Below are positions 3,301 to 52,414 of a stretch of DNA of 64,000 nucleotides, one piece after another. The DNA is taken from assembly GCA_000092065.1 (NCBI GenBank), contig CP000587.1. One strand, given 5' to 3'. Within the stretch, counting starts at the first letter, position 1; every line of letters starts with the position of its first letter. The position numbers were made by a program, and so were the translations under genes. The notes under the pieces are model-generated. The model worked only from the letters and a program-made list of their open reading frames with translations, searched no databases and was not told the DNA's origin. The DNA is from Ostreococcus lucimarinus. Lineage: Eukaryota.

Positions 3301-6300
3301 AGCAATTGAGCTTGCACAAGAAGCCTTGGAGGACAATGATCCAGATCCACTTCCGGTACCTATATTTGGCGTGATGTTCCCTGTCATCGCGCACGCTCTA
3401 CTTCTTCCTGAAGCTCCAAAGAGTTTGCGCGTTGATGCTCTCGGTTTACTTGCAGCACACGCCGGTGAAGATGAAGACGGTGTGCCAATCTTGCCGAGCG
3501 CCGCGGCCGCTGTACGACTGTTGTTGAACACGCTCGCGAATGCGACACCAGATCTAGTAAACATAGCAAAACCCATTCTGTCAGACGTGTCGCGATACTT
3601 GCGCACGAGCGATGACGTTCTCGCATTGGTCGACGGTGTCGAAAGTGAGTACAGAGCGGTTAGAGGTGCCTCTCTATCAGGTTTGCTGAACGCGCCGCTG
3701 AATTTTGCTTCCATGGAACAGCAAACGGCTAACATCGCGATTGCAAAGCTTTTTATTGCGCGTTTCGACGCCGACGAAGTAAATAAGCAGACGGCTGAAG
3801 AGGTTTGGGTATTGTGCGGACTTTCAGACACGATTCCGTCTCCTGTGGATGTCCTGCCGTTTCTCACACACGCAAGCGGTTCCGTTAGGGGGAGTGCCGT
3901 GGAAGCTTTTGCGGCGACGATTGCTGCGCAAGAAAACGGCATGTCGATTTCACTACCGAAGCTTTTCGGCGAATTCAACTCATGTGAGCATGGGTATGGG
4001 CGAGAAGCGCTCATCAAGGGACTCGGCGCTTGTACGCCAAGTCTTAGCGCCCGTGATCTCCCGCTCGTATCCACATTTCTCACAAAGGTTCTCTCTGATG
4101 TCGACGCTGGCGTGCGTTCCGCGACGGTAGAAACCGGACGCTTGATGATTGACGCACACGGTGCAGAGCACACGCAACAGCTACTTGCTGTTTACGAAGC
4201 ATACTTCGACCGAGGAGGAAGTAGAGGTAATCTATCGGAAGAAGCAGAGGATCACGTTCGACAAGGCGTCATCGTTTTTCTCGGCGCACTTGCGGTGCAC
4301 TTAGACAAAGAGGATGAGAAAGTTCGCGCAATCTTGACTCGCTTGCTCGAGGTTTTAAGCACACCATCCGAAGCTGTACAGCGTTCAGTGGCGGATTGTT
4401 TACCTCCTCTCATGAAGAAGCTCAGTGCTGAAGAGCAACAAGCTTTGGTTGATGCTCTGCTGCAGCAACTCACGACGAGCCATGCGTATGCCGATCGGCG
4501 AGGCGCGGCGTTTGGCCTGGCAGGTGCCGTCAAGGGCATCGGTATGAGCAGTCTCAAAGGCATGAACATCATGGACACTCTGAAGGTAGCGATCGAGGAC
4601 AAAAAGAATCCCGAATCGAGAGAAGGCGCGGTTATGGCTTTTGAATTATTCTGCACGAGGTTGGGCAGGCTTTTTGAGCCATACGTCGTGAACATTCTGC
4701 CCATGCTTCTAGTTTGTTTTGGCGACGTTACTGCCCCCGTTCGCGAAGCCACGCAAGCGGCAGCGCGCGTAATCATGGCAAATTTATCTGCGCAAGGCGT
4801 GAAGCTTGTTTTACCGGCACTTCTTTGCGGGGTCGATGACGACAAATGGCGTACGAAACAAGGTTCGGTTCAACTGCTCGGCGCGATGTCAAACTGTGCC
4901 CCGAAACAGCTTGGAGCGTGCTTACCTCAGATCGTGCCTCGTCTGAGCGAAACGTTGATTGATACCCATCCGAAAGTCGTAGAGGCTGCAACGCAAGCCC
5001 TCAAGGCAGTGGGTGACGTTATTCGCAACCCAGAGATTATCGCTTTGAGTAGCTATCTCCTCGGCGCTATTCAAGATCCCACAAGACGTACAAAAGCATG
5101 CTTGGACGTACTGCTCGAAACGACGTTCGTGAACGTGGTCGACGCGCCTTCGCTCGCACTCATCGTACCGGTCTTGGTTCGCGGTTTGCGCGAACAGAAA
5201 GCAGATATGAAGAAGAAAGCGGCTAAGATCGCTGGGAACATGAGTGCTCTCGTCGCCGATCCAAAAGACATGGCTCCGTACATCCCCATGCTCGTCCCCG
5301 AGCTCAAGAAGGCTCTGATGGACCCAATTCCAGAAGTACGCGGCGTTGCCGCGCAAGCACTCGCAGGACTGATTAACGGTCTAGGTGAAGAGTACTTTGA
5401 AGACTTACTCCCGTGGATGATGCGCGCCATGCAAAGCGACGGCACAAGCGTGGAGCGCTCTGGCGCCGCGCAAGGTTTGTCTGAGTGCTTGGCCGTACTT
5501 AGCACGGATCACTTCGACGCGCTCTTCCCAGAAATCCTTTCTGGTTGTGCCAACGCATCATCGGCCGTGAGAGAAGGTCACTTGACTCTACTGCGATTCC
5601 TACCGATATCACTTGGTGACGTCTTTGAGGCACATCTCGTCGACGCACTAGCGTGCGTTCTCCAGGGCTTGGCTGATGAAGACGAACCCGTTCGAGAAGC
5701 CGCGCTGAACGCGGGCAGAGTATTTGTCGAAGAATTTTCTCACAGTGGTAGTTCGCTAGATTTGATTTTGCCGGCGATCGAAGACGGTATCGTCTCCGAT
5801 AACTGGCGCATTCGCCAATCCTCTGTTGAGCTTCTCGGTTCGATGTTGTTCCGCATTATCGGCTCGAGTGGCAAGGTGCGCGTTGAGGGTGGTGATGATG
5901 CCGAAGGCATCTCCACCGAAGCACAAGGACAAATGCTCAGTAATACGTTGGGTGAAATTCGTCATCACAACTTGCTTGCCGCTGTTTACATTCTTAGATC
6001 GGACGGAACTTTGAGCGTGCGAAACGCTGCAGTTCACATTTGGAAAACCGTCGTCGCGAACACTCCGAAGACTCTCAGAGTCATATTACCTTTACTCATG
6101 CAGCGCGTGATTTCAACAATGTCTGGCGGTTCGGACGATCGTCAGCAGACTGCGAGTCGATGTCTTGGCGATGTCGTGCGAAAGCTGGGCGAACGCGTGC
6201 TCGTATCCGTCTTGCCAATCATGCGAGAAGGGTTAAAGAGCGAGCTCGCCGAGCATCGCGAAGGCGTCGCCTTGGGTTTGGCTGAAATATTATTTGCGGC

Positions 6301-22320: not shown

Positions 22321-22380
22321 AGAGAGCGAGAGGGGGAGAGGGAGAGAGAGAGGGATTGATTTGTTGATTGATTGATTGGA
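22321..22380. repeat. (GA)n plus (GATT)n simple repeats immediately upstream of the PI4K start codon
   Basis: The run agagagcgagagggggagagggagagagagagggattgatttgttgattgattgattgg is directly visible. Confidence 0.75.
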
Positions 22381-22382
22381 CG

Positions 22383-24647
22383 ATGGCGCTGGATGATCCG
22401 GTGCCCGTGCTGGTGACGCCGCGACGAGAGGCGCGGAACACGCCGGCGCGCGTGGCGTTGGGTTTCGACGTCAAGGACGTCGTCAAGGATGTCGCGGTGG
22501 GCGGATCGAGCGATGCGGGATCGCCGACGACGGTCGTGACGTCGCCGCTCGCGCGCGCGGGATCGGGGAGCGGGGAATTCGGTGAGAGTTTGTTGAACGC
22601 GGACGAGTTGGTCGCGCCGAAGCACGACATTAGAATCATGCTGAAGAATGGGTCGTCGAAACCGGTGGAAGTTTTGCGATCGCAAATGGTGACGTCGTTG
22701 ACGCTGAGCATGAAACCCGAGTGGTTCACGAAACATAGACATGTGTTCTCGCGCTCGAGTCGACTGTTGCTCGGCGAGTCGTCTTTACCGGCTGATATCA
22801 GTCGGGACGAATTGTACAACAAGCTCGACGATCCGAACGAGTACCGCGAAGTGGTGATGAAACTCGCCGATTTGCAGTATATTCGAGTCAAGGCGGTCGT
22901 GAACGTAAACGAGGCGGGAGACATCGACGAGCGCGAGTATTGGTTGCCTCTGAATAGATCGCAAACCGTCGGCGAGATAAAGCGCTTGGTCGCCACCGCG
23001 GACGACTTGGAATCGTCCAAGGAAAAGTTGCTAGACAACGTGGACTTATCGACGGGAATGAGCATGATTTTGCGTGGTAAAGAGTTGAATAATGATTCCA
23101 CGATCGAAAGCCAAGGTTTGGAGCACAACGCGTTGATACATTTGTTCGTCAAGCGCGACGCAAACGTCAACGTGTCGATGCGCGGAAACAGCGAGTTGGA
23201 GATTCGTCTCAACGTCAATAAGACTGCGGAGACGTTTCGCGATCAACTTCACATGGTCAAGCCTGGTTCAGTGGATAGCGCGCAGTACGCCCATCGTCGA
23301 AGTGGTAGCGTTTCCATCTACCCAGGACGCGGCTTGCGAAACGGTCCCTTGAGCTCGTACGGCGGACGCGAGGGTACATCGCTCGAGTTGCGTCCGCACG
23401 TGCCGCGAATATCGCCGCGACGAAGTTCGTACACGAATTCTATGGCGATTCCATCACCACATTCCGCGTCGTTTGGTGCCCACTCCTTCGGTGGCCGCAG
23501 TATGCCTATTGCTTCTTCTTGGGGAGCAAGAGCCGCGCTGAATTCTCATCGGCAGAGCGGTAGCGTGAACGCTGACTCCATATCGCCACCAAGCGCGCCG
23601 ATAACGCCTTTCGGTAGCCCTGGTACGCTTTCAGCGTCGTTTGACATGGCGCGAGAAGGTTTACTCATGGGTAACGCCCCTCAGCTTTCGCAAGGAGGCA
23701 ACGGTGGCGCATACTTTTTGAAGGGCATCGATGGCAAACCCGCCGCCGTGTTCAAACCGGCGGACGAAGAACCGTTCGCTCCGAACAATCCGAGAGGACA
23801 CCGAAGTAGCCATAATGGCGAGGGTATGCGCAAAGGGACGAAGGCGGGCGAAGGTGCCACGCGTGAAGTTGCGGCGTACTTGCTCGATCACGGTGGTTTC
23901 GCCGGCGTTCCCGCGACGTCTCTCGTCAACTTGACGGATGGGACCGAAGAGGATGATGGAAAGCTCGGCTCGCTTCAGGAATACGTCGAAAACACCGCTG
24001 AGGCAGAGGAGTATGGCCCAAGCATGTTTCCTACGGAAGAAGTGCACAAGATTACCGTTCTCGATATTCGCTTGGCGAACACCGACCGCAACGCTGGAAA
24101 CATTTTATGCCGTAGCGACGAGAATGGCAACATCGTGGCGTTGATTCCAATCGACCACGGGTACGCACTTCCGCACACACTCGAAGACGTCTGTTTCGAG
24201 TGGGAATTCTGGCCCCAAGCATCAATTCCATACAGCGACGACGTCAAGGAGTACGTCGCTATGCTCGACGCCGACGCCGACGTCGAGTACTTGCGAGAAA
24301 ACGACATCGAGCTTCAAGCCTCCTCAGAACGCGTTCTTCGCGTGTGTACTTTGGTTCTGAAAGAAGCTGTACGCCGCAACTTCACCGCAGCGAACATAGC
24401 CTCCATGCTCAGTCGAAAGATGTCCAACAGGAAGTCGGACATTGAAAAGATTGCCGCGCAAGCGGCGTCGACGGCCATCGCCGAGGGGCGTTCCGAACGT
24501 GGTCTTTTGGTGCATAAATCGCCAGAAAACGGTTCGTTTTGGAACGACTTGGCTGACGATGAAATCGCCGAAACGCGTTTCATCGCTCAATTCACCAATA
24601 TCCTCAACGATTTCCTCGACAATTACGAACCGGAAGCCGACGGATGA
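22383..24647 (+). CDS. Type-II phosphatidylinositol 4-kinase (plant PI4K-gamma-like) with N-terminal ubiquitin-like domain(s)
   Basis: UBL-like segments occur at the N-terminus (MILRGKELNNDSTIESQGLEHNALIHLFVKR). The PI4KII catalytic core follows (GGNGGAYFLKGIDGKPAAVFKPADEEPFAPNNPRG; DRNAGNILC; IPIDHGYALP). The true ATG is at 22383. The track start at 22368 is TTG. Confidence 0.8.
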   Translation: MALDDPVPVLVTPRREARNTPARVALGFDVKDVVKDVAVGGSSDAGSPTTVVTSPLARAGSGSGEFGESLLNADELVAPKHDIRIMLKNGSSKPVEVLRSQMVTSLTLSMKPEWFTKHRHVFSRSSRLLLGESSLPADISRDELYNKLDDPNEYREVVMKLADLQYIRVKAVVNVNEAGDIDEREYWLPLNRSQTVGEIKRLVATADDLESSKEKLLDNVDLSTGMSMILRGKELNNDSTIESQGLEHNALIHLFVKRDANVNVSMRGNSELEIRLNVNKTAETFRDQLHMVKPGSVDSAQYAHRRSGSVSIYPGRGLRNGPLSSYGGREGTSLELRPHVPRISPRRSSYTNSMAIPSPHSASFGAHSFGGRSMPIASSWGARAALNSHRQSGSVNADSISPPSAPITPFGSPGTLSASFDMAREGLLMGNAPQLSQGGNGGAYFLKGIDGKPAAVFKPADEEPFAPNNPRGHRSSHNGEGMRKGTKAGEGATREVAAYLLDHGGFAGVPATSLVNLTDGTEEDDGKLGSLQEYVENTAEAEEYGPSMFPTEEVHKITVLDIRLANTDRNAGNILCRSDENGNIVALIPIDHGYALPHTLEDVCFEWEFWPQASIPYSDDVKEYVAMLDADADVEYLRENDIELQASSERVLRVCTLVLKEAVRRNFTAANIASMLSRKMSNRKSDIEKIAAQAASTAIAEGRSERGLLVHKSPENGSFWNDLADDEIAETRFIAQFTNILNDFLDNYEPEADG

Positions 24648-24910: not shown

Positions 24911-26950
24911 ATGGCGCCCAAGTCGTTCGAAGACATGTTCGCGTGCTCGCCCGCGTCGCTGACCAAGCTCAGGGCGTCGCACGCACCGCACGCGTCGCCG
25001 GCGGCGTCGCACGCGCGTGACTACTCGCCCATCGCGTTCCCGTCGATGCGTCGAGACGACGAAGACGAACGCGCGCGCGCGGTCGCGGGCGCGTTCGATG
25101 ACATGTTCGCGTGTTCGCCGGCGTCGCTGAAGAAGATGCGAGGATCGGCAGTGGAGCGGGCGTCGGGAGGGGTCGGGACGCCGACGGGGACGCCGACGCG
25201 GCCGACGGCGAGTCGCGAGGATTTAGCGTCGGCGTTCGGCGATATGTTTTTAGCGTCTCCGGCATCGTTGAAGAAGATGCGCGCCACGAATACGGCGGTG
25301 ACGGGAACGAAGGCGCGCGAGCGTGGGGATGGATTCGGATCGCCCTTGCGTTACGACGGCGACGCGAACGCGGCGGAGCCGAAGAAGGAAGCGGTGAGTT
25401 TCAGTGAAATGTTCGCAAGTTCTCCCTCGGATTTGGCCAAGATGCGACGGTCGGACGTCGGTGGTGCCGCGCGCGGATCTAATGTGGAGGTTGCTAAGGT
25501 GGCAGTGGACGCGCGAGAGCGCACGAATGCGTTCGCAGGCATGTTTGCCAGTTCACCGGCGGATTTGGCCAAGATGCGCGGGAGGTCGCAGTCGTCGATT
25601 TCTTACGCCGAAGGGCGGCACGGCGCGAGCGATCGATTTCAGGTTATCGCGCCTGATTTTCAAGCCATGTTTTCTAGTTCGCCGAGCGATTTGAAAAACT
25701 TGAGAAGCGCGTCGTCGTCGTCGAGGAAGAGGCTCGGCGACGAAGCTGATAGATTTGAGGTGACGTACTTGCTCCTCGCCCCTTGCGAAGCGGCAGCTCG
25801 AGAGAAGGTTTTAGAAATTTGTTTGGAACAGACTGTGGAGTTACCAGCGTCGCTCGTGCCGGAAGGGACTTGGATTCGAGAGCATGTCGTCGGTCGATTG
25901 GAGTCTTTGACGAAGCCGAAGACCGGACCGCACGCCCGTCGTCCGGACGCGTGGAACGCGATTGTCAGCTACCACGCCGACACTGCGGGTGGGGAGTTAA
26001 CACAGCTTGTGAACGTCATCTTCGGCAACACGAGCATGAAGGAGAACGTGATGGTCGTCGATATCGAACTACCTCGCACCATGCTGCGCGAGTACCCTGG
26101 GCCACGATTCGGCGTTCACGGTCTTCGTCGTTTGCTCCGCGTACCCGAAGGGCCTCTGGTGATGACGGCACTCAAACCAATGGGATTGTCTAGCCAAGAA
26201 TTAGCAGAAATTGCGTACGGTTTCGCCAAGGGAGGGATCGACATCATCAAGGATGACCACGGACTCGCAGACCAGCCGTACAGCCCTTACGACGAGCGAG
26301 TTCGAATGTGCGCTGCCGCTGTAGCGCGCGCCAACGCAGAGACCGGTCGAAACGTTCTCTACGCCCCGTGTATCAACGCTCCCGCGCATTTAATCATTTC
26401 TCGAGCGCACGCTGCGAGACAGGCGGGCGCGGGCGCGGTGTTGATGATTCCCGGCATTACGGGTTTGGACGCCATGCGTGAGCTCGCTGCAGACCCGAGC
26501 TTCAACCTCCCCATCATCGCTCATCCCGCGTTGCTCGGGTGCATGCTAGGCGGAGGGAGCACAAATAGAATAGCGGGCTTTAGTCATGAAGTCCTTCTCG
26601 GGTTATTACCGCGGTTGGCCGGTGCGGACGCCACCGTCTTCCCGTCCTTTGGCGGGCGGTTTGGATTCAGCGTGGACGAATGCAAGGCCATCAACGTCGG
26701 GTGCACGCGGGTGATGGGAGATTTGCCCGCCATTTTACCCTCTCCGGGCGGTGGCATGACGCTCGAGCGCATCGCTCAGATGCGCGAGGTGTACGGCCCC
26801 GATTTATTACTTCTCATCGGCGGTTCTTTGTACTCGCACTCGGAAAATCTCGTCGACGGCGCTCGTCACTTCATGAAACTCGCCGGACGCAAAGAGCTCT
26901 ACGGTCCGCTCGAGTGCCCGCACGACGGTTACCGCGGACATACGATGTGA
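24911..26950 (+). CDS. RuBisCO large-subunit-like protein (form IV RLP) with a 260-aa N-terminal extension made of six motif repeats
   Basis: The C-terminal 400 aa align to the RuBisCO large-subunit fold (GGIDIIKDDHGLADQPY; LPAILPSPGGGMTLERIAQMREVYGPDLLLLIGGSLYSH resembles the RbcL block [35 protein letters not shown]). The sequence diverges from bona fide RbcL in ways typical of RLPs. The N-terminus repeats F-x-[DEA]-M-F-[AL]-[CS]-S-P-[AS]-[SD]-L-x-K-[ML]-R six times. Confidence 0.75.
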   Translation: MAPKSFEDMFACSPASLTKLRASHAPHASPAASHARDYSPIAFPSMRRDDEDERARAVAGAFDDMFACSPASLKKMRGSAVERASGGVGTPTGTPTRPTASREDLASAFGDMFLASPASLKKMRATNTAVTGTKARERGDGFGSPLRYDGDANAAEPKKEAVSFSEMFASSPSDLAKMRRSDVGGAARGSNVEVAKVAVDARERTNAFAGMFASSPADLAKMRGRSQSSISYAEGRHGASDRFQVIAPDFQAMFSSSPSDLKNLRSASSSSRKRLGDEADRFEVTYLLLAPCEAAAREKVLEICLEQTVELPASLVPEGTWIREHVVGRLESLTKPKTGPHARRPDAWNAIVSYHADTAGGELTQLVNVIFGNTSMKENVMVVDIELPRTMLREYPGPRFGVHGLRRLLRVPEGPLVMTALKPMGLSSQELAEIAYGFAKGGIDIIKDDHGLADQPYSPYDERVRMCAAAVARANAETGRNVLYAPCINAPAHLIISRAHAARQAGAGAVLMIPGITGLDAMRELAADPSFNLPIIAHPALLGCMLGGGSTNRIAGFSHEVLLGLLPRLAGADATVFPSFGGRFGFSVDECKAINVGCTRVMGDLPAILPSPGGGMTLERIAQMREVYGPDLLLLIGGSLYSHSENLVDGARHFMKLAGRKELYGPLECPHDGYRGHTM

Positions 26951-26984: not shown

Positions 26985-27536
26985 CTACCGCCACGCGTCT
27001 TCAGATACGATGCCGCGTTTCGCCGCCCACCCCACCGCCGGCGACACCAGCGTCGCCAGCATGTGCACCCCGAGCAAAGGCTGAAACAAAAACGGCCACA
27101 AAAATAACCACGTCCCCAAAAACGGTTCATCGTACGACAGCCCGTTCCCTTTGCTCAACCGCACCCCGACGCCGACGACGAGCCACGCCAGGATGAACAA
27201 GATGACGAAAAAGTCATACAACAAAAACGTATCGATCGCCTCCTTCACGCCGTCCATCGCCCCCGGCGCGGCTTTCGCGCTCGACGACGCTTCCTCCGCG
27301 CTCGTCTCGCGCGCCTTGGCCTCGGCGTAGCGCGCTATGTCGGCCTCGAGCTCGCTCGACACGTCGAAATCCCTGCGCTTGGTGATGTCATCGTCGTCGC
27401 CGTTCTCTCTCGCGCGCGGCGCGTTTCGCGCGCGTCGGCGCCCCGGCGCGGCGCCCCGGCGCGCGGTGCGTCGCGCGGGCGTCGCGCGGGCGCGCGCGGA
27501 CGCCGCGACGGCCGTCGAGGACGCGATTGAATTCAT
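26985..27536 (-). CDS. Hypothetical membrane protein (transit-peptide-like N-terminus, two TM helices), possibly thylakoid
   Basis: A 183-aa ORF from MNSIASS (ATG at 27536). It has an acidic stretch, then hydrophobic helices (FLLYDFFVILFILAWLVVGVGV; LFLWPFLFQPLLGVHMLATLV). I recognise no family. Confidence 0.45.
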   Translation of the reverse strand: MNSIASSTAVAASARARATPARRTARRGAAPGRRRARNAPRARENGDDDDITKRRDFDVSSELEADIARYAEAKARETSAEEASSSAKAAPGAMDGVKEAIDTFLLYDFFVILFILAWLVVGVGVRLSKGNGLSYDEPFLGTWLFLWPFLFQPLLGVHMLATLVSPAVGWAAKRGIVSEDAWR

Positions 27537-27627
27537 CGTCGGGGCGTTATCGCGTCGCGAAGTGACGCGCGGCGCCGACACAACGCGACGCGTCGGCGCG
27601 GCGCCCGCGGCGCGCGAGGCGGCGGCG

Positions 27628-29007
27628 ATGGCGCGCGCGGTGACGACGGCGCGCGCGCGAGCGACGGCGCGCGCGCGCGCGGTGACGGTGCGACGAAAAG
27701 ATGTCGATTTCGCGACGGCGTCGACGTCGGGACGACGACGCGCGCGGCGCGCGGCGACGACGACGCGCGCGACGGCGACGACGCGCGGCGCGACGCGCGA
27801 TGGGATCGATGGTCGCGCGCGCGCGCGCGCGGCGTCGATCGAGAGACGGGGTGAACGCGCGGCGCGAACGCGCGCGGCGGACCCGACGTTCGCCGACGCG
27901 CTGGGGGTGACGGCGGCGACGTGGGAACAAGTCGAAGGCGGCCTGTTCGGCGCGTCGTTGTTCCCGTACCTTGGATTTCTGTATTTTTTGGCCAAGCCGG
28001 AGGCGAGGTGCCCGCGCGGGACGCTTTTCGGATTCAAATTCTTGCTCGCGTTTGTGTTCGGGACGATTCCGTTCGCGATTTACGCAAAGGTCGAGTACGA
28101 CGAGATATTGGCGAACGTCGACGTGCTGCACGGGGTGGCGGAGTCGCTCCTGACGATGACGAATGTTTTCATCGTGCTCGGGTTTCGGCAAGGCCTGCGC
28201 GACGCGAGCGAGGGGGGAGATGGAGACGGCAGGCGGCGGAGGAAGACGAGTTTGGGCGACATCGGCGCGGCGTTGTTTTGCACGCTCGCGACGTCGAGCG
28301 CTATTTTCGGCGCGACGGAGGCGTTTGCGGGAACGGAGATCGCTGAAACGGCAGCGATTTGGGATTCCACGTGGCCGCACGTCGAGCCTGCGAACGCGTT
28401 GAGCTTGCCCACGTGGGTGATTCACGTGTCGAGCTTGGTCGAGTGGTTGATCGCGATGGGATTGGCGTGGGAATACGCAGAGGTGACCAAGAGACCGGCG
28501 TGGAAGGGCTTGACACTCGGGATGATCCCGTGTCACGCCTCCGGCATCGCGGCGTGTACGTTTCACTTGTTCTACAACGCCCCGGCGCTAAACAGCGTCG
28601 TGGCGATGCAAGCGCTCTTGACCGTCGTCGGCAACACCACGTGCGCGCTCGCGTCGTATCGCATCGCCAAGGAGGGCGAACGAATGTTGGCGTCGCCGCC
28701 GACGACGACGGAGCCGGAGACGGACGTCAACGACGAAGTGGAAATCATCGAGATCTCCATCGGTAACGAGTCTTTGAAGGGTTGGGAAGATTTAAGCGCC
28801 GCGTGGGCCGCGGATTCCGACGCCGTGCTCTTGCTCAAGCTCGCCTTAGTCTCCGCCGTCGCCTCCGCAGGCGTCAAGTACGGCTCGCTCCTCGTCGATT
28901 TCCCGTTCGAACCAAACCTTTGGGTGGCGTATTCCATCATATTTGTCCCGACGCTGTTGAATTGCGCCAAGTGGAAGCAATTGAGCGACGAAGGCGCCGC
29001 CTTGTAA
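27628..29007 (+). CDS. Chloroplast-type membrane protein with DUF3593-like and DUF2499-like halves
   Basis: Transit-peptide-like N-terminus. Conserved blocks include FPYLGFLYFLAKP, PTWVIHVSSLVEWLIAMGLAWEY, and GMIPCHASGIAACTFHLFYN. These are reminiscent of a cyanobacterial/plant DUF3593+DUF2499 pair. I assign the family from memory only. Start is at the ATG at 27628. Confidence 0.55.
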   Translation: MARAVTTARARATARARAVTVRRKDVDFATASTSGRRRARRAATTTRATATTRGATRDGIDGRARARAASIERRGERAARTRAADPTFADALGVTAATWEQVEGGLFGASLFPYLGFLYFLAKPEARCPRGTLFGFKFLLAFVFGTIPFAIYAKVEYDEILANVDVLHGVAESLLTMTNVFIVLGFRQGLRDASEGGDGDGRRRRKTSLGDIGAALFCTLATSSAIFGATEAFAGTEIAETAAIWDSTWPHVEPANALSLPTWVIHVSSLVEWLIAMGLAWEYAEVTKRPAWKGLTLGMIPCHASGIAACTFHLFYNAPALNSVVAMQALLTVVGNTTCALASYRIAKEGERMLASPPTTTEPETDVNDEVEIIEISIGNESLKGWEDLSAAWAADSDAVLLLKLALVSAVASAGVKYGSLLVDFPFEPNLWVAYSIIFVPTLLNCAKWKQLSDEGAAL

Positions 29008-41377: not shown

Positions 41378-42907
41378 ATGGCGACGGCGTCGACGACGCG
41401 GACGCGCGCGACGCGGCGCGCGCCCTGGACGACGACGCTCGCGTGCGTCGCGGTCGCGGTCGCGCGCGCGGCGCGCGCGCGAGCGGCGACGGGACGATCG
41501 CTGGCGATCGCGATGCGACGGCGGACGACGACCGCGACGGCGGGACGGCGACTGTCGCGGGCGGACGCGATCGAGATTCGGTCGTACGGCGCGCGCCTGG
41601 GGAATGGATACGGCTCCGGGCACGAGTTTTCGCTGACGGTGACGCTGCCGGGCGCGCAAAGTTTTGACCTCATCGTCGACACCGGGTCGCCGCTCACGTA
41701 TTTTCCGTGCGTCGGGTGCGACGCGGAGTTGTGCGGGTATCACGAGCATCAATACTACGATTGGCGGTTGTCGAACGATTTTCGGCTGTTGAACGCGTCG
41801 ATGAACGCCGCGGATGCCGCGTTTTGCGACGCGATGCCCGTCGCGCACAACGTCAGCGCCGACGGCGAGTGTTTATTCGGGCTGGGGTACCTGGACGGTG
41901 CGCGAGGAGGCGGGTCCATGATCGAAGATGTGGTCAGCGTCGGGGATGAATTGTCCCCGGCCAAGATGATTTTCGGGTGCGGTGGTGTCGTAGAAGCTGA
42001 TGGGGGGTTTGATCGACAAGACGGCATGGCTGGTTTCAGTCGAGGTAACACCGCGTTTCACACGCAGTTGGCGAAAGCCGGAGTTATCAACGCGCACGTT
42101 TTTGGATTCTGTTCAGAGGGAAGCGGCACGGATACGGCGATGTTATCGCTCGGTCGGTATGATTTCGGTCGAGATCTTGCGCCTCTATCGTATACACGGA
42201 TACTTGGGGCTGATGATCTCGCCGTTCGCACGATGTCGTGGAAACTCGGCGAAGCCATCATCGCGAGCTCGTCGAACGTCTACACCGTTCTTGATAGCGG
42301 CACCACGCTTGTTCTTCTACCCCCCGCTATGCGAGATGATTTTATCACAAAGTTAGTGGCACAAATGGCGGCTACCCATCCAGAACTTGAACTTTTTGAC
42401 GACGAAGATTTGGGGCAAATGTGTTTCTCCTCTGCCACGCCGGTGCTGACGGCGAAGCTTCGCGACGAGTGGTTTCCAAAACTAGCCATCACGTACGACC
42501 CAGATATCACGTTGATCCTTCCATCAGAGAACTACTTGAACAGTCATTTATACATACCACACACTTACTGCTTGGGAATCGACGAATCAGATGACGGGAC
42601 GATTTTACTCGGCCAACAAGCGCTGAGAAACACGTTCATTGAATACGACCTTGAGAATGATCGCGTCGGTGTGGTCGTCGCGCAGTGCGAAAATCTCCGG
42701 AAGAAGTTCGCGCCTGATACTCCTCATAATCCATGGAGGTTTGTCGCCACCATTTTCATCTTGTTATTCACGGCATGCGTTGTTAGCGCGGTGTCGTTCT
42801 GTTTGTACGCCAAGTTTGGGGGGCAAAAGCCGTTCAAGTACCGAGTGTTCCAAGTCTCCGATATACTCGATGAAGAGATAGAGATGGGTAACGTAGTGGA
42901 CACGTAA
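41378..42907 (+). CDS. Pepsin-like (A1) aspartic protease with a signal peptide and a C-terminal TM anchor
   Basis: Catalytic motifs LIVDTGSPLTYFPC and VLDSGTTLVLLP are present. There is a C-terminal hydrophobic helix (FVATIFILLFTACVVSAVSFCLYA). The start is chosen at the ATG at 41378 (MATASTT, signal-like). The upstream in-frame ORF is GC-rich low-complexity sequence. Confidence 0.85.
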   Translation: MATASTTRTRATRRAPWTTTLACVAVAVARAARARAATGRSLAIAMRRRTTTATAGRRLSRADAIEIRSYGARLGNGYGSGHEFSLTVTLPGAQSFDLIVDTGSPLTYFPCVGCDAELCGYHEHQYYDWRLSNDFRLLNASMNAADAAFCDAMPVAHNVSADGECLFGLGYLDGARGGGSMIEDVVSVGDELSPAKMIFGCGGVVEADGGFDRQDGMAGFSRGNTAFHTQLAKAGVINAHVFGFCSEGSGTDTAMLSLGRYDFGRDLAPLSYTRILGADDLAVRTMSWKLGEAIIASSSNVYTVLDSGTTLVLLPPAMRDDFITKLVAQMAATHPELELFDDEDLGQMCFSSATPVLTAKLRDEWFPKLAITYDPDITLILPSENYLNSHLYIPHTYCLGIDESDDGTILLGQQALRNTFIEYDLENDRVGVVVAQCENLRKKFAPDTPHNPWRFVATIFILLFTACVVSAVSFCLYAKFGGQKPFKYRVFQVSDILDEEIEMGNVVDT

Positions 42908-43062
42908 TATGTCACTTTAGTTAGCGCATACTTACCGCAGTAATAATGAACCGCCGCGTTCTCTCGAAAGCTATTCATCGCCTCTAGTCTCGAGAACTGA
43001 TCACGACAGAACGCGAGCGTAGCTAGGATGAATAGAAATTTATTACACGCGGTGACGTTGGT

Positions 43063-46029
43063 TTACTTTGGCGATAAAGCGGCGGTGACTGTGGTGAGAG
43101 CTTCGTCTAAGGCGGCGTCGAGTTGCGTGGCGTCGCGACCGCCGGCTTGGGCAAATCCCGGTTTCCCACCGCCGCCGCCGCCGCACTTCTTCGCCGCGGC
43201 GCCAAGGACTTGACCGGCTTTAAGACCGCCATCCTTTTGAACTTTGTCGTCAAACAGGGCGACGAGACCGACATTTGCACCATTTGCACTGCCGAGCACG
43301 ATGGCGGCGCCGTCACCGAGCTGCGCCGCGAGGTTTTCGGCGGCGACTTTGAGCGCGGCGGGATCGACGCCGTCGAGACGCGCCACGAGCACCTTCGCCT
43401 CGCCAACTTCGCGAGCTTGAGACACCAAAGCACCAGCCTTGGCGACGGCTAATTCCCCTCTCAGAGACTCTGCGAGCTTCTGCGTCGCGCGCAAGTCTTC
43501 TTGCAAACTCGACACGCGACCCGTGATTTCCTCCGGCGGCACGCGCAATGCGCTGGCGAGCTGCTTCACCACGGCGTCGCGTTGCTGCAAAAGCTCAACC
43601 ACGCCCGCACCCGCGACAGCTTCGATGCGTCGGATGCCGCTCGCGATGCCAGCTTCGCTCAATATTTTGAAGCCTCCGATTTCAGCTGTGTTAGACACGT
43701 GCGTGCCACCGCAAAGTTCCATGGAGATGCCCGGCACGTCGACGACGCGCACGACGTCACCGTACTTTTCGCCAAACATCATCGTCGCTCCTTTGTCCTT
43801 TGCGGCGGCGATGGGCATCTCTTCCGCGGTCAAAGCCGCGCTTTGCGAAATCCATCCGTTAACTAAGTTTTCGACCTCCAAAAGTTGAGCCTCGGTCGGC
43901 GCCTTGGGAGAATTGAAATCAAATCGAAGGCGGTCGAAACCGCACAGCGAACCGGCTTGGGAGACGTCTTCTCCGAGAACCTTCTTGAGCGCGGATTGAA
44001 GCAAGTGCGTGGCGGTGTGATTGCTCTTCGCGCGTCGGCGAGAGTTTTCGTCCACGTTCGCGGTTACCTGGCTGCCCTTCTTGATCGAGCCCTTCGTCAC
44101 GGTGGCCGTGTGTACGATGATGCGACCGCCGCCGGCCTTTTGCACATCCGACACCTCCAGCGTCGCGCCGTCGGCGGTGTGAAGCACGCCGTTATCACCC
44201 ACTTGACCACCACTTTCGGCGTAGAACGGCGTGACATCTAAGACTATATCCACTTTGGCACCCTCCGGCGCTTCCTCCACGGATTCTCCCCCGCAAACGA
44301 TGGCCAACACGTTGGAAACATCGCTCGACGTGCTTTCATACCCAATGAAGGTGCTCTTCGCCCCGAGCTCATCCGCGACTCGCGCCAACGCATTCCCAGC
44401 GGTGACGTCTACAGTTTGATGTGCGGCTTGACTCATCGAACGCTGCTCGGCCATCGCACTCTCAAAACCTTCCAAGTCCACCGTGATACCAGCTTCAGTG
44501 GCGACATCCGCGGTGATGTCAAGCGGGAAGCCATACGTATCGTACAGCGTAAAGGCATCCTTGCCGCTCAACCCCGTCTTTGTCTTCTTCGCCGTCTCGA
44601 TGAGCTCAGCGAGCATCTCTTCGCCACGACCGAGTGTCTTCTGGAAGCTCAATTCCTCGCGCTCGAGCTCGGCGAGAATGCGCGCCGAGTTCTTAGCGAC
44701 TTGCGGATCGCAACCTTCCGACATGGAAATCGCGACTTCGGCGATGGCCGGCGTGAACGCGCTCGCCCCTTCTTCGGGCTTGATCCCGAGCAAACGCCCG
44801 TTTCGCACAACTCGGCGAAGCAATCGTCTAACGATGTACCCACGCCCGATATTCGAGGCGAAAACGCCGTCGGAAATCATGTAACTCACCGCTCGCGTGT
44901 GGTCGCCGATGACTTTGAGCTGCTGCTTTTGCACGTCGTTGCACGCGTTGTAATCGATCCCAGCCATCGACGCCGCTTTATTAATGATGGGCATTATCAA
45001 ATCTGTTTCGTAATTGTTCGGCACGCCTTGAAGAATCTGCGCCATGCGCTCGAGACCCATGCCGGTGTCGATATTCTTATTCTTCAACGGCGTCACGCCG
45101 CCGTCGGCGTCGCGATTGAGTTCCATGAAGACCAAGTTGTAAAACTCGATGAATCGTGAATCATCATCCAAATCCGCACCCTCGAGCCCACGTTCTGGGT
45201 AAAAATCGTAGTACAGCTCCGAGCACGGCCCACACGGGCCCGTGGGACCGGCGGCCCAAAAGTTATCCTTCTCGTCCATGCGCTTAATGCGAGACTCGGG
45301 AACGCCCACGACGTCGCGCCAAATCGCAAACGCCTCGTCATCCTCGCGAAACACGCTCACCCAAACCCGCTCGGGGTTCAACCCAAACTCCCCAGTCGCC
45401 AACTCCCACGCCCACTGGCACGCGTCCTTCTTAAAATAATCCCCGAAACTGAAATTCCCCAACATTTCAAAAAACGTATGATGCCTCGCCGTGACGCCGA
45501 CGTTTTCAATGTCATTCGTCCGCACGCACTTTTGCGTCGTCGTCGCCCTCTCGTGCGCGCGCTCCCGCTGTCCCATGAACACCGGTTTGAATTGCAACAT
45601 TCCCGCAATCGTGAGCAACACCGTGGGATCCTCCGGGACTAACGAACTCGACGGCAGCACCGCGTGTCCGCGCGTCTCGTAAAATTTCAGAAACCTCTGT
45701 CGAATCGCCGCGCCGGAGTTATCCTTCCCTCGCGCGTTCGGGTTCGCGTTCGTCAACCGTTCGCGCTCGGTCGCCGCGCTCATGACGCGCACGGCGATCC
45801 CGCGTCCGTTGGCGCGTTGCGAGCGCGCGCGATGGATCGACGGCGACGCGACGGCGCTCGACGTCGTCGCGAACGCGGGTCGACCGAGCGTCATGGCGAC
45901 GAGGGATCGTCCGATGCGGCTCGGTGCGGCCGCGCCGAGGGACGCCGGGGGGGCGGAAGACGTCGCGCGAGTGCGGGTGACGCGCGTGATCGCCACCGCG
46001 GAGTCTCGGAGCAGGCCGAGACGCGTCAT
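43063..46029 (-). CDS. AARS: Alanyl-tRNA synthetase (class II), probably organelle dual-targeted
   Basis: The hallmark AlaRS motif HTFFEMLGNFSFGDYFK is present, with the editing and C-Ala domains and a C-terminal GGGG-K motif. The N-terminus looks like a presequence. The start at 46029 (MTRLGLLR) is chosen to avoid overlap with the upstream gene. Confidence 0.92.
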   Translation of the reverse strand: MTRLGLLRDSAVAITRVTRTRATSSAPPASLGAAAPSRIGRSLVAMTLGRPAFATTSSAVASPSIHRARSQRANGRGIAVRVMSAATERERLTNANPNARGKDNSGAAIRQRFLKFYETRGHAVLPSSSLVPEDPTVLLTIAGMLQFKPVFMGQRERAHERATTTQKCVRTNDIENVGVTARHHTFFEMLGNFSFGDYFKKDACQWAWELATGEFGLNPERVWVSVFREDDEAFAIWRDVVGVPESRIKRMDEKDNFWAAGPTGPCGPCSELYYDFYPERGLEGADLDDDSRFIEFYNLVFMELNRDADGGVTPLKNKNIDTGMGLERMAQILQGVPNNYETDLIMPIINKAASMAGIDYNACNDVQKQQLKVIGDHTRAVSYMISDGVFASNIGRGYIVRRLLRRVVRNGRLLGIKPEEGASAFTPAIAEVAISMSEGCDPQVAKNSARILAELEREELSFQKTLGRGEEMLAELIETAKKTKTGLSGKDAFTLYDTYGFPLDITADVATEAGITVDLEGFESAMAEQRSMSQAAHQTVDVTAGNALARVADELGAKSTFIGYESTSSDVSNVLAIVCGGESVEEAPEGAKVDIVLDVTPFYAESGGQVGDNGVLHTADGATLEVSDVQKAGGGRIIVHTATVTKGSIKKGSQVTANVDENSRRRAKSNHTATHLLQSALKKVLGEDVSQAGSLCGFDRLRFDFNSPKAPTEAQLLEVENLVNGWISQSAALTAEEMPIAAAKDKGATMMFGEKYGDVVRVVDVPGISMELCGGTHVSNTAEIGGFKILSEAGIASGIRRIEAVAGAGVVELLQQRDAVVKQLASALRVPPEEITGRVSSLQEDLRATQKLAESLRGELAVAKAGALVSQAREVGEAKVLVARLDGVDPAALKVAAENLAAQLGDGAAIVLGSANGANVGLVALFDDKVQKDGGLKAGQVLGAAAKKCGGGGGGKPGFAQAGGRDATQLDAALDEALTTVTAALSPK

Positions 46030-51591: not shown

Positions 51592-52070
51592 ATGAATCAA
51601 CCGAGCCGCGCCGATCGGTTCGTCCTGCCCGAGGGCGAGCGCAAGCTGTCGTACGAGCGCGACACCAAGGTGGAGAACGCGGGGACGTTCGTGCTGCAGC
51701 GCGAGGACCACACGATTGGAAATTTGTTGCGAATGTGCGTGCGAGCGCGCGCGCGAAGCGAAAGACGCGGCGGGATGACGCGCGAATCGCGCGCGAAATG
51801 ACGCGCGGGATGATGCGAGCGCGAACGACTGACGATGACGACGACGGACGGCGCGAGAACTGTAGGGAGCTGCACAAGAACCCCGACGTGGTGTTCGCCG
51901 GGTACAAGAACCCTCACCCGACGGATCATAGAATCGTGCTCAAGGTGCACACGAACGCGAATACGACGCCGGTGCAGGCGCTGAGGGATGCGGTGACTAA
52001 TTTGCGAGCGGAGGTGGGCGATTTGTCGCAACAGTTTGCGGATGAGATTAACGCGCTTCGACGCGAATAA
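51592..52070 (+). CDS. RPB11: RNA polymerase II subunit RPB11 (POLR2J-like), two exons: join(51592..51734,51866..52070)
   Basis: The spliced 115-aa product ([48 protein letters not shown]|[30 protein letters not shown]...) aligns to POLR2J over its full length. The intron at 51735..51865 is 131 nt. It starts GTGCGTG, has a CGACTGACG branch, and ends TGTAG. It splits a Met codon (AT|G). Confidence 0.88.
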
Positions 52071-52172
52071 GATTTGGTCGCGACGTCGCGAAAGCGTTTT
52101 GTAAATAGATTTTAGAGTCAAAGAAAGAGTCGGATTACAACATTATTACTCCACCATCGTATTGGTGGATGT

Positions 52173-52173
52173 G

Positions 52174-52205
<32 letters not shown>

Positions 52206-52206
52206 T
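52173..52206. repeat. (TGCG)n microsatellite, about 9 units, in the convergent 3' intergenic region
   Basis: The run gtgcgtgcgtgcgtgcgtgcgtgcgtgcgtgcgtc is directly visible. Confidence 0.85.
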
Positions 52207-52380
52207 CAATTCGTAAATAGTTGAAAAGTACATAGAAAACAGGAGCGACCAGCGTCTTGTCGTCGCCAAATATACATGTAAATCACGCCGCGTTCCGGTG
52301 AATCCGCGGCGACCTTATTATTCGTTATCATACTTGTTTTGATCGTCATACTTTGTTCGACGACGTTTTCTTCCGAAAAC

Positions 52381-52402
52381 ATCAATCAATCAATCAATCA
52401 AT
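52381..52402. repeat. (ATCA)n microsatellite, about 5-6 units
   Basis: The run atcaatcaatcaatcaatcaatt is directly visible. Confidence 0.8.
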
Positions 52403-52414
52403 TCATAATCCTCA

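What the first reader, a model, noticed from the sequence alone, without database searches (positions are those of the whole stretch)
24926..25705. RuBisCO-like protein carries a 260-aa N-terminal array of six copies of a novel FxxMFxSSPxxLxKMR motif
The C-terminal 400 aa form a form-IV-type RuBisCO large-subunit-like fold. RLPs normally stand alone at about 400 aa. Here the same ORF starts with six copies of a conserved 16-aa motif spaced 42-56 aa apart in otherwise low-complexity linkers. The copies are FEDMFACSPASLTKLR, FDDMFACSPASLKKMR, FGDMFLASPASLKKMR, FSEMFASSPSDLAKMR, FAGMFASSPADLAKMR and FQAMFSSSPSDLKNLR. The spacing and conservation resemble multivalent linker proteins such as Rubisco-binding repeat proteins, but this motif does not match any I know. 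It could be a multivalent interaction or oligomerisation module attached to an RLP.
Basis: partly seen in the sequence, partly recalled or inferred. Interest (0 to 1): 0.75.

Follow-up and report, generated by a model that had tools for sequence, protein, structure and literature searches.

The report
RuBisCO-like enzyme with a sticker-motif tail
A marine picoalga (Ostreococcus lucimarinus) encodes a RuBisCO-like sulfur-salvage-type enzyme with a disordered N-terminal tail carrying six copies of a short helical motif that I found only in this enzyme family; the tail looks like a multivalent docking module, but its binding partner is unknown.

Summary
One ORF (24911..26950, +, 679 aa) is identical to O. 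lucimarinus XP_001418678.1. It carries six copies of F-x-[DE]-M-F-x-[AS]-S-P-x-x-L-x-K-[ML]-R at the stated coordinates, followed by a RuBisCO-like (form IV) domain.

- **C-terminal domain.** It is closest to the R. palustris RLP structure 3QFW. It fails the thresholds for true RuBisCO and for MtnW enolase. It is probably a 5-methylthioribulose-1-P isomerase-type enzyme.
- **Array conservation.** Ostreococcus, Micromonas and Bathycoccus orthologues carry 4-7 copies. Motifs are 76% identical against 34% for linkers, and codons differ between copies, which points to purifying selection.
- **Motif distribution.** A motif profile searched against 1.84 billion proteins hit only this RLP family. That includes one copy in the linker of the Bathycoccus RLP-cupin paralogue.
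- **Predicted structure.** AlphaFold predicts helix-break-helix stickers (pLDDT 65-79 for copies 3-6) joined by disordered linkers. It gives no sign of docking in cis.
- **Origin.** The gene arose by duplication of an RLP-cupin fusion in the Mamiellales ancestor.

Best reading: a private, multivalent protein-binding array on an active RLP enzyme, partner unknown. A Rubisco or pyrenoid linker role is unlikely. I found no description of it in the searchable literature. It is a new variant of a known kind.

The parts
24911..26950 (+). Complete CDS, 679 aa plus stop: N-terminal motif array followed by an RLP domain. Identical to O. lucimarinus CCE9901 XP_001418678.1 / UniRef A4S040 ('predicted protein').
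24926..24973 (+). Motif copy 1, FEDMFACSPASLTKLR. It starts at residue 6 of the protein.
   Evidence: AF2 helix 14-22, pLDDT about 53
25094..25141 (+). Motif copy 2, FDDMFACSPASLKKMR.
   Evidence: this unit is absent from one orthologue, P0006
25235..25282 (+). Motif copy 3, FGDMFLASPASLKKMR. This is the most conserved copy. The Leu at position 6 is shared with Bathycoccus copies.
   Evidence: pLDDT 65-70; best sub-threshold Ddi2_HDD stretch
25400..25447 (+). Motif copy 4, FSEMFASSPSDLAKMR.
   Evidence: AF2 H164-169 and H172-182, pLDDT 75-79
25532..25579 (+). Motif copy 5, FAGMFASSPADLAKMR. This unit is exactly duplicated in the 7-copy variant P0001.
25658..25705 (+). Motif copy 6, FQAMFSSSPSDLKNLR. 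It lies about 15 aa upstream of the RLP fold.
   Evidence: pLDDT 64-71
25445..25477 (+). Secondary conserved island, RRSDVGGAARG, directly after copy 4 (an RRxS pattern). It is conserved in Ostreococcus orthologues.
25019..25039 (+). Secondary conserved island DYSPIAF in linker 1. A similar FGSP island lies at 25334-25348 and DRFQVIAPD at 25631-25657.
25751..26947 (+). RuBisCO-like (form IV, DeepYkr-type) domain, aa 281-679. It has K-P-M (26165-26185) where RuBisCO has K-P-K. It keeps the carbamyl-lysine block as IIKDDHGL (26243-26266) where RuBisCO has KDDE.

Best explanation
The gene encodes a probably cytosolic enzyme of the DeepYkr branch of RuBisCO-like proteins. By homology its likely activity is isomerisation of 5-methylthioribulose-1-phosphate, the RLP step of the MTA-isoprenoid shunt. 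Its N-terminus is an intrinsically disordered, basic (pI 9.4) tail. The tail carries six copies of a 16-residue helix-break-helix motif: an F-x-x-M-F turn, then a Ser N-cap and Pro, then an amphipathic x-x-L-x-K-M-R helix. The copies are separated by 26-40 residue flexible linkers. The motifs most likely act as stickers that fold on binding and dock onto a folded protein surface. RLPs are dimers, so each enzyme would present about 12 stickers. That would let it cluster with, or be tethered to, a partner. The motif is found only in cis with this RLP lineage, in both paralogues in Bathycoccus. The favoured partner is therefore an RLP-family surface or the RLP-cupin paralogue that performs the next pathway step. 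The invariant Ser/Thr-Pro at the helix cap is a plausible phospho-switch. Shown: the anatomy, the conservation, the restriction to this family, the RLP clade and the intact catalytic core. Inferred: binding, partner identity, clustering, phospho-control, cytosolic location and the enzymatic reaction.
For: - **The motif array is real and selected.** There are six copies, against 4 of 200,000 shuffles giving even one. Synonymous codon differences separate copies. Motif identity is 76% against 34% for linkers among Ostreococcus orthologues. Ninety-four non-redundant copies from Ostreococcus-, Micromonas- and Bathycoccus-type proteins share F1, M4, F5, S8, P9 and L12 at 93-100%.
- **Copy number varies.** It ranges from 4 to 7, including an exact 44-aa unit duplication in P0001.
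- **The motif is private to this family.** A motif profile searched against 1.84e9 representative proteins gave 22 hits at E<=1e-3. All are this RLP family or its fragments, except one junk repeat. Single copies score 35-44 bits, so a good copy elsewhere would have been detectable. The Bathycoccus RLP-cupin paralogue has one copy in its interdomain linker.
- **Predicted structure.** AF2 gives each motif as helix-break-helix (pLDDT 65-79 for copies 3-6, lower for 1-2), linkers below 50 and the RLP domain above 90.
- **RLP clade.** The best PDB sequence hit is 3QFW at 234 bits, against 165 bits for 4NAS and 131-136 bits for the characterised MtnW enolases (2ZVI, 2OEK). Foldseek gives TM 0.92 and rmsd 1.9 A to 3QFW, 'Rubisco-like protein from R. 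palustris'. R. palustris RLP1 is a DeepYkr methylthioribulose-1-P isomerase (PMC5893883).
- **Link to the shunt.** The sister paralogue is fused to a cupin that matches Rru_A2000 (3JZV, 4e-20). [quoted passage not shown]
- **Intact catalytic core.** Only 5 clade-discriminating sites separate the two paralogues' RLP domains. K422, K447, D448, D449 and H538 are invariant across 76 sequences.
- **One coding unit.** The MMETSP-derived ORF P0008 spans four motif copies plus the RLP domain.
- **N-terminus.** The first motif starts at residue 5-8 in Ostreococcus and Micromonas orthologues and has acidic residues at positions 7-8. This is unlike the Arg/Ala/Ser-rich transit-peptide-like start of the neighbouring gene.
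Against: - No binding partner was identified.
- AF2 monomer models give no high-confidence docking of any motif onto the RLP domain. They also give none for the single Bathycoccus motif onto RLP or cupin, where pLDDT is 57-60.
- Ostreococcus and Micromonas RLP-cupin paralogues lack the motif, so a general RLP-cupin connection is not required.
- No phosphopeptide from this protein was found in the (truncated) O. tauri phosphoproteome tables.
- Localisation was not computed with a dedicated predictor.
- Enzyme activity is inferred from homology only.
Confidence: 0.55

Rival explanations
1. Phospho-regulatory or turnover domain. The conserved S/T-P sites (with the nearby RRxS island) would be targets of proline-directed and basophilic kinases. 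The array would tune activity or stability, for example over the diel or cell cycle. It would not scaffold an assembly.
For: Ser/Thr at position 8 (91 S, 3 T) and Pro at position 9 (94/94) are essentially invariant. An RRSDVGG island is conserved after copy 4. Two-thirds of O. tauri phosphoproteins are rhythmic (PMC10540734 abstract).
Against: A kinase site does not explain invariant F1, M4, F5 and L12 spread over 16 residues, nor 4-7 copies. S-P followed by a helix is also a classic helix N-cap. No phosphopeptide was found (those files were truncated). This reading is compatible with the main explanation and does not exclude it.
Confidence: 0.18
2. Rubisco-binding linker. The array would bind plastid form I Rubisco as EPYC1, PYCO1 or CsoS2 do, making the protein a pyrenoid or Rubisco-clustering factor built on an RLP.
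For: The architecture is similar: 42-56 aa periodicity, a short helix per repeat, disordered basic linkers and pI 9.4. Micromonas has a pyrenoid (PMC4815162).
Against: The N-terminus is not transit-peptide-like; the motif starts at residue 5-8 and has acidic residues. There is no [D/N]W[R/K]xx[LIVA] or KWSP-type motif. The array is equally conserved in Ostreococcus and Bathycoccus, which to my knowledge lack pyrenoids (memory, not tested). The motif is absent from every other protein, whereas Chlamydomonas pyrenoid proteins share their motif.
Confidence: 0.06
3. The copies are not independent stickers. They would be helix-turn-helix units that pack with each other, within one chain or between chains, into an HDD/STI1-like helical bundle. 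The array would then be a self-oligomerisation domain.
For: The only database resemblance is a sub-threshold match of the motif to the first ~25 positions of Pfam Ddi2_HDD, a helical bundle. Whole arrays score 24-30 bits, E 4e-7 to 3e-5. Seven of 73 single copies hit it and no other family.
Against: All scores are below the gathering cut-off of 32.8. The motif profile finds no HDD structure in the PDB and no DDI protein in 1.84e9 sequences. Disordered linkers of 26-40 aa and variable copy number argue against a fixed fold. AF2 does not build a bundle; overall pTM is 0.65 and motif pLDDT is 53-79.
Confidence: 0.1
4. Amphipathic helices that anchor the enzyme to a membrane, lipid droplet or starch-granule surface.
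For: Each motif combines F, M, F, L and M with K and R and is predicted helical.
Against: The helices are short (6 and 9-11 residues) and broken by S-P, so they are poor membrane amphipathic helices. The strict sequence conservation, including small residues at positions 7 and 10, points to stereospecific protein recognition. Nothing was tested directly.
Confidence: 0.06
5. Annotation artefact or non-functional low-complexity expansion. The real protein would start near the RLP domain.
For: Some prokaryote-style gene calls in metagenomes start at internal Met codons.
Against: The frame and the motif are conserved across three genera, with in-frame indels only. The transcript-derived ORF P0008 includes the array. 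Synonymous divergence accompanies amino-acid conservation.
Confidence: 0.02

Closest known systems
DeepYkr-clade RuBisCO-like proteins (R. rubrum / R. palustris RLP1, PDB 3QFW), the 5-methylthioribulose-1-P 1,3-isomerase of the MTA-isoprenoid shunt
   Same: The ~385-400 aa catalytic domain has the same fold (TM 0.92, rmsd 1.9 A). This is the best sequence match among solved structures. It shares the KDDH and KPM active-site signature. The lineage is associated with an Rru_A2000-type cupin, fused in the sister paralogue.
   Different: This protein is eukaryotic and nuclear-encoded. It carries a 280-aa disordered N-terminal array that no bacterial homologue has; those are 373-396 aa. The cupin is not in this protein. 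Activity is untested.
Mamiellales RLP-cupin fusion paralogue (O. lucimarinus XP_001419378.1; Micromonas commoda XP_002508354.1; Bathycoccus prasinos)
   Same: It is the sister clade in an NJ tree. RLP-domain identity is 57-67% and only 5 sites discriminate the two clades. The Bathycoccus version carries one copy of the same motif.
   Different: The fusion has no N-terminal array. Instead it has a coiled-coil linker, a C-terminal cupin and a duplicated GSACEW-type tail motif.
CcmM of beta-carboxysomes (a gamma-carbonic-anhydrase-like domain plus 3-5 SSUL modules)
   Same: The design principle is shared: an oligomeric enzyme-type domain fused to several binding modules joined by flexible linkers, with variable copy number. 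This is an analogy from general knowledge.
   Different: CcmM modules are folded ~90-aa SSUL domains that bind Rubisco. Here the modules are 16-aa linear motifs with an unknown partner. There is no sequence relationship.
Pyrenoid linker proteins (EPYC1, PYCO1, Chlorella linker)
   Same: Shared features are repeats every ~40-60 aa, one short helix per repeat, disordered basic spacers and valency of 4-7.
   Different: The motif is different and has no Trp. There is no transit peptide. A large folded enzyme domain is attached. The protein is present in genera reported to lack pyrenoids. Rubisco binding is untested.
Pfam PF24669 Ddi2 HDD (helical domain of DDI1/DDI2)
   Same: The first ~25 profile positions share the motif's pattern: hydrophobic-x-D-M-hydrophobic ... 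N/S-P-x-x-L ... L-K/R.
   Different: The match is sub-threshold (24-30 bits against 32.8). Only one helix-turn-helix of a 66-position domain is matched. The rest of the domain is absent.

Membership tests
RuBisCO large-subunit superfamily (fold) | Pfam RuBisCO_large catalytic domain above the gathering score, and a RbcL-like alpha/beta barrel fold | tested here: met
   PF00016 scores 81.6 bits against a cut-off of 30.1. Foldseek probability is 1.00 to many RLP and RuBisCO chains.
Bona fide RuBisCO (forms I, II, III) | Scores above the curated family cut-offs, and a complete RuBP-binding and catalytic set (K175-P-K177, K201-D-D203-E204, H294-R295) | tested here: not met
   NCBIfam scores are form III 124 against 497, form I 118 against 438, and form II 69 against 489. 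The sequence shows KPM, KDDH and HP at the corresponding blocks. The residue correspondence rests on textbook knowledge.
YkrW/MtnW DK-MTP-1-P enolase RLPs | Equivalog-level match to the MtnW models | tested here: not met
   PRK09549 scores 205 against 409 and TIGR03332 scores 147 against 513.6. PDB MtnW chains score 131-165 bits, against 234 for 3QFW.
DeepYkr RLP (methylthioribulose-1-P isomerase) | Closest sequence and structure relative is a characterised DeepYkr RLP | tested here: met
   3QFW (R. palustris RLP, not rlp2) is the best hit by sequence (4.5e-68) and by fold (TM 0.92). RLP1 of R. palustris is the DeepYkr isomerase (PMC5893883). No formal tree with named reference clades was built.
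DeepYkr RLP (methylthioribulose-1-P isomerase) | Genomic or functional link to an Rru_A2000-type cupin methylsulfurylase | tested here: inconclusive
   No cupin is present in this protein or in the 64-kb window. The sister paralogue in the same genome is fused to a cupin that matches 3JZV Rru_A2000 at 4e-20.
DeepYkr RLP (methylthioribulose-1-P isomerase) | Catalyses the 1,3-isomerisation of 5-methylthioribulose-1-P | not testable with these tools
   This needs an enzyme assay.
Pyrenoid / Rubisco linker proteins (EPYC1-like) | Known Rubisco-binding motif ([D/N]W[R/K]xx[LIVA]) or demonstrated Rubisco binding | tested here: not met
   Position frequencies over 94 copies show no Trp and no such pattern. 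Binding itself is not testable here.
Pyrenoid / Rubisco linker proteins (EPYC1-like) | Plastid targeting | tested here: inconclusive
   The motif starts at residue 5-8 and has acidic residues, which is not transit-peptide-like on inspection. No predictor was available.
Pyrenoid / Rubisco linker proteins (EPYC1-like) | Disordered, basic, regularly spaced repeats | tested here: met
   Spacing is 42-56 aa, linker pLDDT is below 50 and pI is 9.4.
Pfam PF24669 Ddi2_HDD | Score at or above the gathering cut-off, covering the domain | tested here: not met
   Scores are 17.6-30.5 bits against 32.8. Only profile positions 2-26 of 66 are matched.
AP-2 alpha-ear FxDxF motif | F-x-D-x-F in a disordered region of an endocytic accessory protein | tested here: inconclusive
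   Copies 1-3 read F-x-D-M-F. Copies 4-6 have E, G and A at position 3. Over all copies D is 46% and E 18%. The conserved core is far longer than FxDxF and the context is a metabolic enzyme. I treat this as a chance overlap.

The most novel reading that the evidence does not exclude
The array would turn a metabolic enzyme into its own scaffold. RLP dimers displaying ~8-14 stickers would self-associate, or co-assemble with the RLP-cupin paralogue. The result would be a cytosolic condensate or metabolon that channels methylthio-sugar phosphates (MTA to DXP plus methanethiol) in the ocean's most abundant picoeukaryotes. This would be a eukaryotic counterpart of the CcmM / pyrenoid-linker principle that arose independently, built on a Rubisco homologue and tunable through the Ser-Pro helix cap.
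Probability: 0.15. Interest if true: 0.8.

Novelty: new variant of a known kind. Interest (0 to 1): 0.6.

Why it matters
RuBisCO-like proteins are studied almost only in bacteria, where they are bare ~380-430 aa enzymes. Here the dominant marine picoeukaryotes (Ostreococcus, Micromonas, Bathycoccus) keep two nuclear RLP paralogues. One is fused to the next enzyme of the MTA-isoprenoid shunt. The other is fused to a conserved multivalent motif array that occurs nowhere else among the 1.84 billion representative proteins searched.

If the array is a docking or assembly module, it would be a compact, genetically tractable case of how a linear-motif scaffold is born on an enzyme. Homologous recombination works in O. 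tauri (from memory). It would also point to an organised methylthio-sugar and methanethiol metabolism in organisms that matter for marine sulfur cycling.

If the array is only a regulatory tail, the finding is still a useful annotation of a 'predicted protein'. It also records an undescribed eukaryotic RLP-cupin fusion.

Tried and rejected
- **Word-indexed homologue search with the 280-aa N-terminus.** It returned only frameshifted or partial copies of the same gene.
- **Motif profile against 1.84e9 proteins.** No other family carries the motif. One hit, P0128, is a junk repeat matching only 'LLASPADLEK'.
- **N-terminus and motif profile against PDB sequences.** Nothing meaningful: NUP145N at E 0.13, and Cse2 and FCPI fragments at E above 0.6.
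- **Pfam on the arrays.** The only hit is the sub-threshold Ddi2_HDD resemblance. I did not accept it as membership.
- **AF2 of the full protein and of the Bathycoccus RLP-cupin paralogue.** This tested for cis-docking of motifs. There was no confident docking.
- **Cupin gene near the RLP in the window.** None was found.
- **Literature.** I found no paper describing the array or the algal RLP-cupin fusion. The Tabita 2007 and 2008 RLP reviews, which I recall list Ostreococcus RLPs, are not held.
- **O. tauri phosphoproteome supplements.** There was no peptide from this protein, but the tables are truncated.
- **Considered and set aside.** These were the AP-2 FxDxF motif, G3BP FGDF, 14-3-3, NES, calmodulin-binding and Cu-binding Met motifs. 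The pattern fits none of them beyond 3-5 residues.
Full report
**1. What is in the sequence**

The region holds one long ORF on the + strand. It runs from 24899 (GTG), or 24911 (first ATG), to 26950 and is 679 aa from the ATG. The translation is identical to Ostreococcus lucimarinus CCE9901 XP_001418678.1 / UniRef A4S040, which is annotated only as 'predicted protein'. The index lists the exact protein in 549 blocks of public assemblies, and the four loci fetched came from ENA metagenome assemblies. It is called there as a single 679-aa gene, flanked by a ubiquitin-like/PI3_PI4-kinase gene and a DUF3593/DUF2499 gene.

Start-to-start spacings are 56, 47, 55, 44 and 42 aa. Chance is excluded. 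Of 200,000 shuffles of the N-terminal 280 aa, only 4 gave even one loose match. The motif occurs nowhere else in the six-frame translation of the window.

**2. The array is old and under selection**

- Tandem Repeats Finder finds no DNA repeat with the unit period.
- Between copies, identical amino acids are frequently encoded by different codons. Copies 1 and 6, for example, share 1 of 7 codons at identical residues.
- Orthologues with the same architecture were recovered from Ostreococcus-type, Micromonas-type (including M. pusilla XP_003058265.1) and Bathycoccus prasinos sequences. They carry 4-7 motif copies.
- Over 94 non-redundant copies the consensus is F(97%)-x-[D/E/A]-M(96%)-F(93%)-x-[A/S/G/C]-S/T(100%)-P(100%)-[A/S]-x-L(100%)-x-K(80%)-[M/L/I]-R(80%).
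- Among Ostreococcus-type orthologues, motif residues are 76% identical to the window protein. Linker residues are 34% identical and full of indels.
- Whole units are gained and lost. P0006 lacks unit 2. P0001, an environmental variant 93% identical to the window protein, carries an exact 44-aa duplication of unit 5 and so has seven copies.
- A transcriptome-derived ORF from a related strain (MMETSP, P0008, 'type:complete') spans four motif copies and the RLP domain.

**3. The C-terminal domain**

- Pfam RuBisCO_large matches aa 402-652 at 7.8e-23.
- The protein fails every curated RuBisCO model: form III 124 bits against 497, form I 118 against 438, form II 69 against 489. It also fails the MtnW enolase equivalogs, at 205 against 409 and 147 against 513.6.
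- The closest solved structure is 3QFW, 'Rubisco-like protein from Rhodopseudomonas palustris'. By sequence it scores 234 bits, against 131-165 bits for MtnW-type RLPs and 104-122 bits for Photo-type RLPs. By fold, the AlphaFold model gives TM 0.92 and rmsd 1.9 A. 3QFW is distinct from 2QYG (rlp2).
- R. palustris RLP1 is the DeepYkr-clade 5-methylthioribulose-1-P 1,3-isomerase of the MTA-isoprenoid shunt (PMC5893883).
- The carbamyl-lysine block reads IIKDDHGL and the K-P-K block reads K-P-M. These positions are invariant across 76 aligned eukaryotic and bacterial relatives.

The domain is therefore a form-IV RLP, not a RuBisCO. It is most probably an isomerase of the DeepYkr type. The activity is inferred, not tested.

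**4. An unexpected relative explains the origin**

The same search returned a second group of 700-780 aa proteins in which the RLP domain comes first. It is followed by a coiled-coil linker and a cupin domain. Cluster look-ups place these in O. lucimarinus itself (XP_001419378.1), Micromonas commoda and Bathycoccus prasinos. More distant versions occur in Pycnococcus and Cymbomonas.

The cupin matches PDB 3JZV, 'uncharacterized protein Rru_A2000', at 4e-20, and 3IBM at 9e-29. Rru_A2000 is, to my recollection, the R. rubrum 1-methylthioxylulose-5-P methylsulfurylase. PMC5893883 confirms that a DeepYkr RLP plus a cupin methylsulfurylase are the signature pair of the shunt.

In a neighbour-joining tree of the RLP domain, the eukaryotic sequences form one group apart from the bacterial ones. 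The Mamiellales motif-array RLPs and the Mamiellales RLP-cupin fusions are sister clades, and each contains Bathycoccus, Ostreococcus and Micromonas branches. The window gene therefore arose by duplication of an RLP-cupin fusion in the Mamiellales ancestor, losing the cupin and acquiring the array.

Only five sites discriminate the two clades in the RLP domain. At three of them the array-bearing paralogue keeps the bacterial residue. There is no sign of pseudo-enzyme decay.

**5. How private is the motif?**

A 30-column profile of 73 copies was searched with HMMER against 1.84 billion representative proteins. It gave 22 hits at E<=1e-3. All were members or fragments of this RLP family, apart from one repetitive junk ORF that matches only half the motif. 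Single copies score 35-44 bits (E 6e-4 to 9e-7), so one good copy in any other protein should have surfaced.

The only occurrence outside the array is a single copy, RFE[ST]IF[AQ]ASPAHLK. It lies in the RLP-cupin interdomain linker of Bathycoccus-type fusions and is absent from the Ostreococcus and Micromonas fusions. This differs from the Chlamydomonas Rubisco-binding motif, which is shared by many pyrenoid proteins. Here the motif travels only with this RLP lineage.

**6. Structure of the array**

AlphaFold2, run with a 76-sequence alignment, gives the RLP domain above pLDDT 90 and the linkers below 50. Each motif is predicted as a short helix over F-x-x-M-F-A, a break at the two small residues, and a second helix starting at Pro: H164-169 and H172-182 for copy 4. 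pLDDT is 65-79 for copies 3-6 and lower for copies 1-2.

S/T-P-x-x-hydrophobic is a textbook helix N-cap. Intermediate pLDDT on short helices inside disordered regions is typical of segments that fold on binding (general knowledge). The tail is basic (pI 9.4) and the enzyme domain is mildly acidic (pI 6.4).

I could not access coordinates, so docking was judged from confidence alone. Motif 6, next to the fold, has pLDDT 64-71. The Bathycoccus linker motif has pLDDT 57-60. Neither looks confidently docked in cis. A site formed only in the RLP dimer would be invisible to these monomer runs.

**7. The only database resemblance**

Pfam Ddi2_HDD (PF24669) matches the arrays at 24-30 bits, E 4e-7 to 3e-5, always to profile positions ~2-26 of 66. 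Its gathering score is 32.8. Seven of 73 isolated copies hit it at E<1, and no copy hits any other family.

As I recall it, the start of the DDI2 helical domain reads ...LRDMLLANPHELSLLK.... That is the same hydrophobic-x-D-M-hydrophobic ... N/S-P-x-x-L ... pattern. The motif profile, however, finds no HDD chain in the PDB and no DDI protein in the big search. I read this as a shared helix-cap-helix sequence pattern. It supports the predicted secondary structure and is not evidence of homology.

**8. Mechanism**

The anatomy is that of a multivalent linear-motif scaffold attached to a dimeric enzyme:
- short conserved helices that probably fold on binding;
- long divergent disordered spacers;
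- copy number that drifts between 4 and 7;
- conservation over the whole order.

I commit to the reading that the motifs are protein-binding stickers. Because the motif is confined to this RLP lineage, and occurs in both paralogues in Bathycoccus, the most economical partner is a surface of the RLP family or of the RLP-cupin paralogue. That would cluster consecutive steps of a methylthio-sugar salvage route. The invariant S/T-P cap could serve as a phospho-switch. Only the anatomy, conservation and restriction are shown. Binding, partner and consequence are inference (confidence 0.55 for the sticker-array reading, much lower for any named partner).

The rivals are:
- a purely regulatory phospho-tail;
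- units that pack together into a helical bundle;
- membrane- or granule-anchoring amphipathic helices;
- a Rubisco linker.

The last is disfavoured. The protein starts with the motif at residue 5-8, with acidic residues, and has no transit-peptide-like leader. It lacks the known Rubisco-binding patterns. It is equally conserved in Micromonas, which has a pyrenoid (PMC4815162), and in Ostreococcus and Bathycoccus, which I recall have none.

**9. Novelty and verdict**

Text searches for Ostreococcus RLPs, for RLP-cupin fusions in algae, for Mamiellales linker proteins and for the peptide strings themselves found no description of the array or of the fusion paralogue. The older RLP reviews, which I recall list Ostreococcus RLPs, were not available to check.

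The enzyme domain is a member of a known kind. The appended array is an undescribed, lineage-private module. Overall this is a new variant of a known kind. It is of moderate-to-good interest because the partner question is directly testable in a tractable alga.

Noticed in passing
Related proteins P0029, P0031 (O. lucimarinus XP_001419378.1) and P0049; not in the window: Mamiellales carry a second RLP paralogue fused to a coiled-coil linker and an Rru_A2000-type cupin. [quoted passage not shown] Its C-terminal tail carries two copies of a conserved G/P-SACEW-x-P motif followed by lysines.
   Followed up: partly
P0001 (environmental variant, 93% identical overall) compared with window 25448-25579: There is copy-number polymorphism. 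An exact 44-aa tandem duplication (RSDVGGAARGSNVEVAKVAVDARERTNAFAGMFASSPADLAKM) gives seven motif copies in one metagenomic O. lucimarinus-like contig.
   Followed up: partly
window 25235-25290 and the other motif copies: The motif shows a sub-threshold but specific resemblance to the first ~25 positions of Pfam Ddi2_HDD (PF24669). Scores are 24-30 bits against a cut-off of 32.8. It is the only Pfam family hit by any copy.
   Followed up: yes
window 25019-25039, 25334-25348, 25445-25477, 25631-25657: Four small islands in the linkers are also conserved among Ostreococcus orthologues: DYSPIAF, FGSP, RRSDVGGxxRG (an RRxS pattern) and DRFQVIAPD. They may be extra phosphosites or secondary contacts.
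   Followed up: no
window 27385-29007 (+), overlapped by ORF 26985-28037 (-): The downstream neighbour encodes a DUF3593 + DUF2499 membrane protein with an Arg/Ala/Ser-rich, transit-peptide-like N-terminus. A 350-aa antisense ORF overlaps it and is probably a GC-rich artefact.
   Followed up: partly
window 22368-24647 (+): The upstream neighbour combines a weak ubiquitin-like match with a PI3/PI4-kinase catalytic domain. Some metagenome gene calls split it in two.
   Followed up: partly
window 2001-6000, 42001-44000, 52001-54000: These stretches have lower GC (0.53-0.55) than the 0.59-0.71 of the rest of the window.
   Followed up: no
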